Shown piece by piece: positions 37,410 to 38,000 of a stretch of DNA of 64,000 bases. Both the position numbers and the translations under genes were made by a program. The notes under the pieces are model-generated. The model ran no database searches and was not told the DNA's origin. It saw nothing but the letters and a program-made list of their open reading frames with translations. Within the stretch, counting starts at the first letter, position 1, and each line of letters opens with the position of its first letter. Location: assembly GCF_044324875.1 (NCBI RefSeq), contig NZ_CP172185.1. The stretch is one strand, 5' to 3'. Source of the DNA: Escherichia coli. Lineage in GTDB: Bacteria; Pseudomonadota; Gammaproteobacteria; Enterobacterales; Enterobacteriaceae.

Positions 37410-38000
37410 ATGAACGAAGCCGTTAGCCCTGGTGCGCTTAGCACCCTGTTCACCGATGCCCGCACTCACAACGGCTGGCGGGAGACACCCGTCAGCGATG
37501 AGACGTTACGGGAGATTTATGCCCTGATGAAATGGGGGCCGACATCAGCTAACTGTTCTCCGGCACGGATCGTGTTTATCCGCACTGCAGAAGGAAAAGA
37601 ACGTCTGCGCCCGGCGCTTTCCAGCGGCAATCTGCAAAAAACCCTGACCGCGCCCGTCACCGCGATCGTCGCCTAGGACAGTGAATTTTATGAGCGGTTA
37701 CCACAGCTGTTTCCTCACGGCGATGCCCGCAGTTGGTTTACCTCCAGCCCACAACTTGCCGAAGAAACAGCGTTTCGCAACAGTTCCATGCAGGCGGCCT
37801 ATCTGATCGTCGCCTGCCGGGCGCTGGGACTGGATACCGGCCCGATGTCGGGCTTTGACCGTCAACACGTGGACGACGCCTTTTTTACGGGCAGCACGCT
37901 GAAGAGCAATCTGCTGATTAATATCGGCTATGGCGATAGCAGCAAGCTTTATGCGCGCCTGCCAGGTCTGTCCTTTGAAGAAGCCTGCGGGCTGTTGTAA
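37410..38000 (+). pseudogene. rutE: rutE (nitroreductase-like reductase) interrupted by in-frame amber codon at 37674-37676
   Basis: Frame reads ...[34 protein letters not shown]...; ORFs 37410-37676 and 37788-38000 share a frame; K-12 RutE has W here as recalled. Confidence 0.8.

What the first reader, a model, noticed from the sequence alone, without database searches (positions are those of the whole stretch)
37674..37676. In-frame amber codon in rutE, the second TGG-to-TAG-type interruption in this window
rutE reads through ...VTAIVA then TAG where W is expected, with the downstream frame intact, so this is a single nonsense change rather than a frameshift. The IS2 insD gene is interrupted the same way at 8974. 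Two amber interruptions at Trp codons in 64 kb hint at an amber-suppressor background, mutagenesis history, or sequencing artefact. The rest of the rut operon is intact.
Basis: partly seen in the sequence, partly recalled or inferred. Interest (0 to 1): 0.5.

Follow-up and report, generated by a model that had tools for sequence, protein, structure and literature searches.

The report
Ordinary rutE nonsense pseudogene allele
The stop codon inside rutE is a real, inherited loss-of-function mutation that public E. coli genomes already annotate as a pseudogene; it sits at a known DNA-methylation mutation hotspot and has nothing to do with the separate stop codon in the nearby IS2 element.

Summary
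In each, a single G-to-A change turns a Trp codon (TGG) into TAG and leaves the downstream frame intact. Neither is an artefact. An independent assembly matches the window 100% across the rut operon and carries the same TAG. RefSeq already marks rutE as a pseudogene ("internal stop") in all four of the 21 complete E. coli carrier genomes I checked.

The suggested common cause is not supported:
- rutE is the only one of 36 core genes in the window that is broken.
- None of the 21 carrier genomes has the supE-type suppressor allele.
- The IS2 stop is an old feature of a mobile sugar-utilisation island. It also occurs in strains whose rutE is intact.

The ancestral rutE sequence GCC-TGG-GAC contains CCTGG, a Dcm methylation site. 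The observed CCTGG-to-CCTAG change is the one expected from 5-methylcytosine deamination. In public assemblies, stops at Dcm-type Trp codons of rut genes are 22 TAG to 1 TGA. At non-Dcm Trp codons they are 25 to 16 (p = 0.003).

Nonsense alleles are common throughout the rut operon, whether or not the site is a Dcm site, so the hotspot is a likely contributor and is not needed to explain the stop. Overall this is ordinary and already known.

The parts
37410..38000 (+). rutE pseudogene (malonic semialdehyde reductase, nitroreductase family). It is colinear with the intact 196-aa orthologues except for one stop.
   Evidence: The Pfam Nitroreductase domain spans residues 24-174 of the repaired protein, so the 88-aa product lacks more than half of the domain.
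37674..37676 (+). In-frame amber codon replacing Trp89 (TGG to TAG; the G-to-A change is at 37675).
37672..37676 (.). CCTAG, the remnant of an ancestral CCTGG Dcm site. The changed base pairs with the inner, methylated cytosine of the bottom-strand CCAGG.
   Evidence: All TGG-bearing relatives read GCCTGGGAC here.
34411..37400 (+). rutA (34411-35502), rutB (35502-36194), rutC (36206-36592) and rutD (36600-37400), all intact.
38011..39854 (+). rutF (38011-38505) and rutG (38526-39854), both intact. They lie downstream of the stop, so they may suffer polarity (inferred).
   Evidence: Polarity of lesions in this operon is reported in PMC8113886.
33485..34123 (-). rutR repressor gene, intact.
8176..9506 (+). 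Full-length IS2 (1,331 bp) with terminal inverted repeats at 8185-8217 and 9466-9498. orfA is intact (ORF 8222-8632). orfB (8590-9495) is interrupted.
   Evidence: RefSeq annotates the near-identical copies in strains 135 and 673 as 'programmed frameshift; internal stop'.
8974..8976 (+). Amber codon replacing Trp129 of IS2 OrfB. The context CGA-TGG-TGC is not a CCWGG site. The stop lies just before the SDGF motif.

Best explanation
The rutE TAG is a naturally occurring, vertically inherited nonsense allele. It makes rutE a pseudogene in an otherwise intact rut operon of an ordinary E. coli chromosome.

Shown: a single G-to-A transition turned Trp89 (TGG) into TAG.

Shown from sequence, with loss of function inferred: translation ends after 88 of 196 residues. 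That removes more than half of the nitroreductase/FMN domain, so no RutE activity should remain.

Likely, about 60%: the mutational route was deamination of 5-methylcytosine. The ancestral CCTGG is a Dcm site, and CCTGG-to-CCTAG is the product of deamination of the inner cytosine on the opposite strand that escaped Vsr repair.

Inferred: the allele persists because the Rut pathway is under weak selection in many E. coli lineages. Nonsense alleles at other codons of rutB, rutC, rutE and rutG are also common in public data.

Shown: the IS2 orfB TAG is an unrelated, older lesion. It travels with a sugar-utilisation island and inactivates that IS copy's transposase.

The confidence given (0.8) is for the overall reading: an ordinary inherited pseudogene allele with no shared cause with the IS2 stop. 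The Dcm route on its own is about 0.6.
For: Real and inherited:
- Locus L006 (ERR14764776) is 100% identical to window 34410-40676 and carries the TAG.
- The exact 88-aa product is indexed in 48 blocks of public assemblies.
- 21 of 5,426 complete genomes carry the TAG. PGAP annotates rutE as 'internal stop' in all four of them checked.

Isolated lesion:
- Only rutE is broken among 36 mapped core genes.

Independent origins:
- TAG alleles fall in at least 8-11 haplotype groups with no shared block around the stop.
- PK5074 has 0 other differences from MG1655 (TGG) over 5,839 columns. The window lineage is nearer to TGG strains 042 and NY1601 than to any other TAG lineage.

Dcm route:
- Codon 89 is the only one of rutE's three CCWGG sites that can give a stop.
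- None of the 60 other possible single-base nonsense changes in rutE is found in 5,426 complete genomes, against 21 genomes with W89 TAG.
- The swine O139:H1 lineage has a second stop, rutG W233, which is also CCTGG-to-CCTAG.
- Stops read at Dcm-type Trp codons are 22 TAG to 1 TGA. At non-Dcm Trp codons they are 25 to 16 (Fisher p = 0.0027; on distinct sequences 20:1 against 18:15, p = 0.0017).
- The chemistry and the hotspot status of CCWGG are established (PMC2715241; PMC13250602; PMC3527292).

Function:
- RutE reduces malonate semialdehyde to 3-hydroxypropionate, and YdfG can do this in vitro (PMC8113886).
- The Pfam domain spans residues 24-174.

IS2:
- The window copy differs at 1 nt from the copies at the same island site in strains 135 and 673. 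All of them carry the TAG.
Against: The hotspot is not needed to explain the allele.
- W42-to-TAG, at a non-Dcm site, is listed in more blocks (104) than W89-stop (48). It is equally polyphyletic, with 6 clusters from 7 loci.
- Every Trp codon tested in rutB, rutC and rutG has truncation alleles in 38-183 blocks.
- Block counts for Dcm-type sites (48, 145, 183) overlap those for non-Dcm sites (38-141).
- Dcm inner cytosines are not visibly hypervariable in the window against ETEC1738 (1/335 against 18/1823), or in the 30-sequence rut alignment (1/22 against 16/175).
- The 21 complete-genome carriers reduce to about 2-3 origins, because 18 belong to swine ETEC/O139:H1 genomes that look like one clone; only two of the 18 were compared, and they differ at 1 site over 6 kb.
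- The loci sampled for the TAG:TGA contrast are the longest contigs only. They are not phylogenetically independent draws.
- Whether this genome has dcm and vsr cannot be checked from the window.
- Loss of RutE activity and polarity on rutF and rutG are inferred, not measured.
Confidence: 0.8

Rival explanations
1. The G-to-A change arose as an ordinary replication error or non-methyl-dependent transition. The CCTGG context is coincidental, and the allele is common only because rut genes are dispensable.
For: Non-Dcm Trp codons in rutE, rutB, rutC and rutG all show recurrent nonsense alleles at similar block counts. There is no excess variability at Dcm sites over 35 kb. The IS2 W129 amber arose at least twice at a non-CCWGG site. 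CCWGG sites contribute only a small share of all G:C-to-A:T transitions (PMC13250602).
Against: The stop is almost exclusively TAG at Dcm-type Trp codons (22:1) and mixed at non-Dcm ones (25:16), p = 0.003. No other rutE nonsense change appears in 5,426 complete genomes. The swine lineage has a second Dcm-site amber, in rutG.
Confidence: 0.35
2. Loss of rutE, or of the Rut pathway, is positively selected in some niches. The recurrent stops would then reflect adaptation and not neutral decay.
For: There are many independent knock-outs, sometimes different ones on nearly identical backgrounds (L004 W89-stop and L028 W42-stop; L010 and L032/L033). Some lineages carry further rut lesions: rutG W233-stop in swine O139:H1, and split rutA and rutG in L001/L007.
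Against: There is no neutral baseline. With hundreds of thousands of sequenced E. coli, every tolerated transition is expected to recur. Losing rutE alone leaves a pathway that still makes malonate semialdehyde, which is not obviously beneficial (inference from PMC8113886). Only 21 of 5,426 complete genomes carry the allele.
Confidence: 0.15
3. The strain is an amber-suppressor background in which TAG is read through, so both interrupted genes remain functional.
For: Both interruptions are amber codons. The window contains no tRNA gene, so the source genome itself cannot be checked.
Against: None of the 21 complete genomes with the same rutE TAG has the supE44-type glnV allele; the probe was validated on C600, DH5alpha and DH1. 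No other TAG-interrupted gene is found among 36 core genes. The two ambers have separate histories and occur apart in other strains. Only supE was probed; other suppressors were not tested.
Confidence: 0.02
4. Sequencing or assembly error, or a history of laboratory mutagenesis or a mutator phenotype.
For: Both changes are G:C-to-A:T transitions, the class favoured by alkylating mutagens.
Against: The identical allele appears in independent assemblies from SRA, DRA, ENA and NCBI, from natural isolates of humans, swine and wild boar. The IS2 amber is shared by natural isolates from pork, chicken and humans. The substitution spectrum is normal and all other genes are intact.
Confidence: 0.02

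Closest known systems
Dcm (CCWGG) 5-methylcytosine deamination hotspots, countered by Vsr very-short-patch repair. The classical case is the lacI amber hotspots of Coulondre and Miller 1978 (recalled from memory; paper not held). The chemistry is described in PMC2715241 and PMC13250602.
   Same: The ancestral sequence is CCTGG. The change is a transition at the base paired with the inner methylated cytosine. The product is CCTAG, an amber codon. The same change recurs on many unrelated backgrounds.
   Different: The classical lacI hotspots are CAG-to-TAG in CCAGG on the coding strand; this is the opposite-strand version, hitting a Trp codon. Methylation of this site in this strain was not shown. 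In my data the excess appears in the TAG:TGA ratio and not in the raw frequency of the allele.
rutE pseudogenes annotated 'internal stop' by NCBI PGAP in complete E. coli genomes: PK5074, PSS-04, K_EC180 and O139:H1 strain W13-16 (checked), plus PSJ-32-1 and 16 further swine ETEC genomes that carry the TAG but whose annotation I did not read.
   Same: The codon and the substitution (W89 TGG-to-TAG) are identical, and in most of them the other rut genes are intact.
   Different: The haplotype backgrounds differ by 0.6-2.8% over 6 kb, so these are independent origins and not the window's lineage. The two swine genomes checked (K_EC180, W13-16) also carry rutG W233-to-TAG.
Defective IS2 (IS3 family) copies fixed inside genomic islands.
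   Same: The element is a 1,331-bp IS2 with inverted repeats, orfA, and orfB with a programmed frameshift. The stop lies upstream of the catalytic region, so this copy cannot make its own transposase.
   Different: The copy differs at 35 positions from canonical IS2 and has no 5-bp target duplication. The same W129 amber also occurs in a canonical IS2 at another locus in FDAARGOS_1303.

Membership tests
Nonsense-mutation pseudogene | An in-frame stop in a sequence otherwise colinear with intact orthologues, with no frameshift. | tested here: met
   tblastn of ETEC1738 RutE covers residues 1-196 at window 37410-37997 with exactly one stop. MG1655, Nissle, 042, NY1601 and ETEC1738 have TGG.
Nonsense-mutation pseudogene | The allele is heritable and independently observed, not an error of one assembly. 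| tested here: met
   L006 is 100% identical over 6,267 bp. The product is in 48 blocks of assemblies and in 21 complete genomes.
Nonsense-mutation pseudogene | Loss of the protein's function. | not testable with these tools
   Inferred only. The product ends at residue 88, while the Nitroreductase domain spans residues 24-174.
Dcm-site 5-methylcytosine deamination hotspot mutation | The ancestral sequence is CCWGG and the change is a transition at the inner C:G pair, giving CTWGG or CCWAG. | tested here: met
   The change is GCCTGGGAC to GCCTAGGAC. Codon 89 is the only one of rutE's three CCWGG sites that can yield a stop.
Dcm-site 5-methylcytosine deamination hotspot mutation | The host encodes active Dcm, so the site is methylated. 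| not testable with these tools
   dcm and vsr lie outside the window, and no methylation data are available.
Dcm-site 5-methylcytosine deamination hotspot mutation | The change recurs more often than at matched non-Dcm sites. | tested here: inconclusive
   For: TAG:TGA is 22:1 at Dcm-type Trp codons against 25:16 at non-Dcm ones (p = 0.0027), and 21 complete genomes carry W89 TAG against 0 for the 60 other rutE nonsense changes. Against: block counts overlap (48/145/183 against 38-141); W42-stop is as polyphyletic; no excess variability at Dcm sites over 35 kb.
Amber-suppressor (supE/supF-type) background | A tRNA gene with a CUA anticodon. | not testable with these tools
   The window has no tRNA gene. 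As a proxy, none of the 21 complete genomes with the same rutE TAG has the supE44-type allele. Other suppressors were not probed.
Amber-suppressor (supE/supF-type) background | An excess of TAG-interrupted but otherwise conserved genes. | tested here: not met
   One of 36 core genes is interrupted, and the island genes mapped are intact.
IS2 (IS3 family insertion sequence) | About 1.3 kb, terminal inverted repeats, and orfA/orfB joined by a programmed frameshift. | tested here: met
   The element is 1,331 bp and 97.4% identical to canonical IS2. Inverted repeats are at 8185-8217 and 9466-9498. orfA and orfB are present. PGAP reports 'programmed frameshift' for the near-identical copies.
IS2 (IS3 family insertion sequence) | A 5-bp target-site duplication flanking the element. 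| tested here: not met
   The flanks are TATAT on the left and ATCGT on the right. This suggests a later rearrangement next to the element.

The most novel reading that the evidence does not exclude
In-frame Dcm sites (CC|TGG and C|CAG|G) may act as preferred break points through which dispensable operons such as rut are repeatedly and independently switched off across E. coli lineages. If so, the methylome would shape which genes decay first, and rut loss might itself be adaptive in some host-associated niches.
Probability: 0.12. Interest if true: 0.45.

Novelty: already known. Interest (0 to 1): 0.15.

Why it matters
It matters little for biology at large. This is a routine pseudogene that annotation pipelines already flag, produced by a mutation class described in 1978. 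For this strain it predicts impaired use of pyrimidines as a nitrogen source, and possibly malonate semialdehyde stress when the rut operon is induced. For scans like this one, it gives a practical rule: an amber at CC|TGG or C|CAG|G in enterobacteria should first be read as a Dcm-site transition and not as a sign of a suppressor strain. It also shows that recurrence of an allele in very large public collections is not evidence of a hotspot or of selection unless matched control sites are examined.

Tried and rejected
1. Shigella-like genome decay. I suspected this because no complete E. coli matched better than about 98.5%. I rejected it because all other core genes are intact.
2. Protein homologue search for truncated RutE forms. 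It was uninformative, because only the top-scoring, mostly full-length hits are listed.
3. First concatenated-41-mer control. The design failed: junctions between neighbouring pieces recreated native sequence and hit almost every genome. I redesigned it with alternating orientation, checked computationally that it contained no native 28-mer, and re-ran it.
4. Raw block counts of exact truncated products as a measure of mutation rate. I rejected this measure. The counts reflect sequencing effort and clonal expansion, and 17 of 58 non-Dcm 'hits' were genes cut off by contig ends.
5. My early claim that recurrence on many backgrounds proves a hotspot. I withdrew it after W42-stop, at a non-Dcm site, proved equally polyphyletic.
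6. Testing for excess variability at Dcm sites in the window against a relative and in the rut alignment. No signal appeared, and power was low.
7. Cherry 2018 (PMC6256030) and Lieb 1991 (PMC1204449) are not held in the library. What I say about them rests on how other papers cite them and on memory.

Full report
**Observation**

The window has TAG at 37674-37676, in the rutE reading frame (37410-38000). It follows ...APVTAIVA, and the same frame continues to the normal stop. A second TAG at 8974-8976 interrupts IS2 orfB, reading NQR*CSDGF. Relatives have TGG (Trp) at both positions. Each lesion is therefore a single G-to-A transition, with no frameshift. Mapping the ETEC1738 proteins onto the window shows rutR, rutA-D, rutF and rutG intact. 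rutE is the only one of 36 core genes between phoH and cspH that is disrupted.

**What kind of genome this is**

No complete E. coli genome matches the window better than about 98.5% over 24 kb, or 99.7% over rutE. That first suggested Shigella-like decay, but the gene inventory rules it out. The window is an ordinary E. coli chromosome segment, running from an island through phoH-efe-put-rut-wrbA-agp-cbp-tor-yccM-csp to app. Its rut region groups nearest strains 042 and NY1601.

**Not an artefact, and already annotated**

- The exact 88-residue truncated product is indexed in 48 blocks of public assemblies from SRA, DRA, ENA and NCBI.
- One locus, L006 from ERR14764776, is 100% identical to the window over 6,267 bp and carries the TAG.
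- A 41-mer probe centred on the mutated base found 21 of 5,426 complete genomes with the TAG. With this probe, every 28-nt megablast seed must span the mutated base, so only carriers can hit.
- RefSeq annotates rutE as a pseudogene with an internal stop in all four of those genomes checked.

**Independent origins**

I aligned 15 TAG-bearing rut regions with five TGG-bearing references. The TAG lies on 8 to 11 haplotype groups, depending on the clustering threshold, that differ by 0.6-2.8% over 6 kb. They still differ by 6-20 SNPs within 300 bp either side of the stop, so no shared block surrounds it. PK5074 has no difference from MG1655 (TGG) over 5,839 columns other than the stop. L004 is nearer to Nissle (TGG) than to other TAG loci. 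The window lineage is nearer to 042 and NY1601 (both TGG) than to any other TAG lineage. The mutation has therefore arisen many times.

**The sequence context**

The ancestral GCC-TGG-GAC contains CCTGG, a Dcm site. Dcm methylates the inner cytosine on both strands. Deamination of 5-methylcytosine gives a T:G mismatch inside CTWGG/CCWGG, which Vsr normally repairs (PMC2715241). CCWGG is a recognised hotspot for G:C-to-A:T changes at the methylated base (PMC13250602; PMC3527292). Deamination on the bottom strand (CCAGG to CTAGG) reads on the top strand as CCTGG to CCTAG, which is exactly the observed change. rutE has three CCWGG sites, and only codon 89 can give a stop in this way. The IS2 site (CGA-TGG-TGC) is not a CCWGG site.

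**Is the hotspot actually responsible?**

I ran several controls, and they do not all agree.

- Complete genomes. A validated concatenated probe covered the 60 other possible single-base nonsense changes in rutE on nine haplotype backgrounds. It found no match in 5,426 complete genomes, against 21 for W89 TAG. However, the 21 reduce to about 2-3 origins, because 18 come from swine ETEC/O139:H1 genomes that look like one clone. Only two of the 18 were compared, and they differ at 1 site over 6 kb.
- The larger assembly index. The truncation product of W42 (AAA-TGG-GGG, non-Dcm) is listed in 104 blocks, more than W89's 48. It is just as polyphyletic, with 6 clusters from 7 loci, sometimes on backgrounds nearly identical to those of W89-stop loci.
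- Other rut genes. Every Trp codon I tested has truncation alleles. Dcm-type sites: RutB W115 145 blocks, RutG W233 183 blocks. Non-Dcm sites: RutB W70 104, RutB W75 74, RutC W83 141, RutG W137 43, RutG W174 38.

So recurrence in a collection of this size is not evidence of a hotspot. Block counts measure sampling and not origins, and 17 of 58 places read at non-Dcm sites were genes cut by contig ends.

- Within-codon control. This one is sharper, because Dcm-driven deamination at CC|TGG can only produce TAG and never TGA. The stops read at Dcm-type Trp codons are 22 TAG to 1 TGA (RutE W89 10:0, RutB W115 10:0, RutG W233 2:1). At non-Dcm Trp codons they are 25 to 16. Fisher's two-sided p is 0.0027; on distinct sequences the counts are 20:1 against 18:15, p = 0.0017.
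- A second Dcm-site amber. The swine O139:H1 lineage's second rut lesion, rutG W233, is also CCTGG to CCTAG.
- Variability of Dcm sites. Against the hotspot, Dcm inner cytosines are not visibly more variable than control contexts between the window and ETEC1738 (1/335 against 18/1823; the single change is rutE 37675 itself). The same holds in the 30-sequence rut alignment (1/22 against 16/175). Power here is low.

My reading is that the Dcm route is the more likely origin of this particular change (about 60%). It is a modest bias acting on an operon that loses function frequently anyway.

**Consequence**

RutE reduces malonate semialdehyde to 3-hydroxypropionate, the last step of the Rut pyrimidine-nitrogen pathway. 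YdfG can carry out this reaction in vitro (PMC8113886). The Nitroreductase domain spans residues 24-174 of the repaired protein, so the 88-residue product should be inactive; this is inferred. The closest solved structure by sequence is the FMN-dependent oxidoreductase IstO, 7vqk. Lesions in this operon can be polar on downstream genes, so rutF and rutG expression may fall; this is also inferred.

**The IS2 amber**

The element at 8176-9506 is a full-length 1,331-bp IS2 with inverted repeats, an intact orfA, and an orfB stopped at W129.
- It differs at 35 positions from a canonical IS2 (strain SK1144).
- It differs at only 1 position from the copies at the same site of the same island (alpha-galactosidase, LacI-type regulator, IS2, Gp2) in strains 135 and 673, and at 5 positions from STEC384's copy. 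All of these carry the TAG.
- In STEC384 the island sits at thrW-proA, a different chromosomal site from the window's. The dead IS2 therefore travels with the island.
- None of these strains is among the 21 rutE-TAG genomes, so the two ambers are historically unlinked.
- FDAARGOS_1303 has a canonical IS2, 2 differences from SK1144, with the same TAG at another locus. That amber has therefore also arisen at least twice.

**The suppressor idea**

The window has no tRNA gene, so the source genome cannot be tested. A probe for the supE44-type glnV anticodon change found 157 genomes; all 60 listed were laboratory K-12 derivatives. A combined probe returned exactly 157 + 21 = 178 records with at most one place per genome, so no rutE-TAG genome carries that suppressor. 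The substitution spectrum against ETEC1738 is ordinary, at 389 transitions to 157 transversions. That argues against a mutagenesis history.

**Verdict**

This is an ordinary, already-annotated nonsense pseudogene allele of rutE. It probably arose at a Dcm-site hotspot, in an operon that decays repeatedly in E. coli. Next to it lies an unrelated, older dead IS2 copy. Nothing points to a shared cause. Interest is low.

Noticed in passing
window 1-21700: A genomic island occupies the position where ETEC1738 has pgaABCD, to the left of phoH. It carries a crr-like gene, a GH32 hydrolase, an MFS transporter, alpha-galactosidase, a LacI-type regulator, IS2, Gp2-like genes, an IS21 element (istA 16750-18396, istB 18170-19168) and an integrase (19289-20497). 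pgaC and pgaD have no match in the window. In STEC384 the same island lies at thrW-proA instead.
   Followed up: partly
window 57018-58558: cspH (57018-57227) directly abuts appA (57218-58558, minus strand). The gfcABCDE-etp group-4-capsule genes that follow cspH in ETEC1738 have no match anywhere in the window, so they appear to be deleted here.
   Followed up: partly
L025-L037 (rutE codon 42; window equivalent 37533-37535): A second recurrent rutE nonsense allele exists in public assemblies: W42 TGG to TAG (once TGA) in the non-Dcm context AAA-TGG-GGG. It is listed in 104 blocks and lies on at least 6 backgrounds, yet is found in none of 5,426 complete genomes.
   Followed up: partly
L013/L014 (rutG codon 233; window equivalent 39222-39224): Swine ETEC/O139:H1 genomes carry two ambers in the rut operon, rutE W89 and rutG W233. 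Both are CCTGG-to-CCTAG changes at Dcm sites.
   Followed up: yes
L001, L007 (rut region): One rutE-TAG lineage shows further operon decay. rutA is split into 154-aa and 182-aa products. rutG carries a deletion of about 106 bp that splits it into 176-aa and 230-aa products.
   Followed up: no
window 8171-8175 and 9507-9511: The IS2 has no 5-bp target-site duplication (TATAT on the left, ATCGT on the right). This suggests a rearrangement or deletion next to the element after it inserted.
   Followed up: no
window 42899-44158: yccE is only 85.7% identical at protein level to ETEC1738's, while neighbouring genes are 98-100% identical. It is a locally hypervariable gene.
   Followed up: no
window 37397-37412 (rutD/rutE junction): A 1-bp indel polymorphism at the end of rutD gives two forms among E. 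coli haplotypes. One is a 266-aa RutD that ends before rutE, as in the window. The other is a 270-aa RutD that overlaps the rutE start, as in 042 and K_EC180.
   Followed up: no
window 12687-14510 and 15336-16421: Two long island ORFs (607 aa and 361 aa) have no NCBIfam match at E <= 1e-5. Their function is unknown.
   Followed up: no
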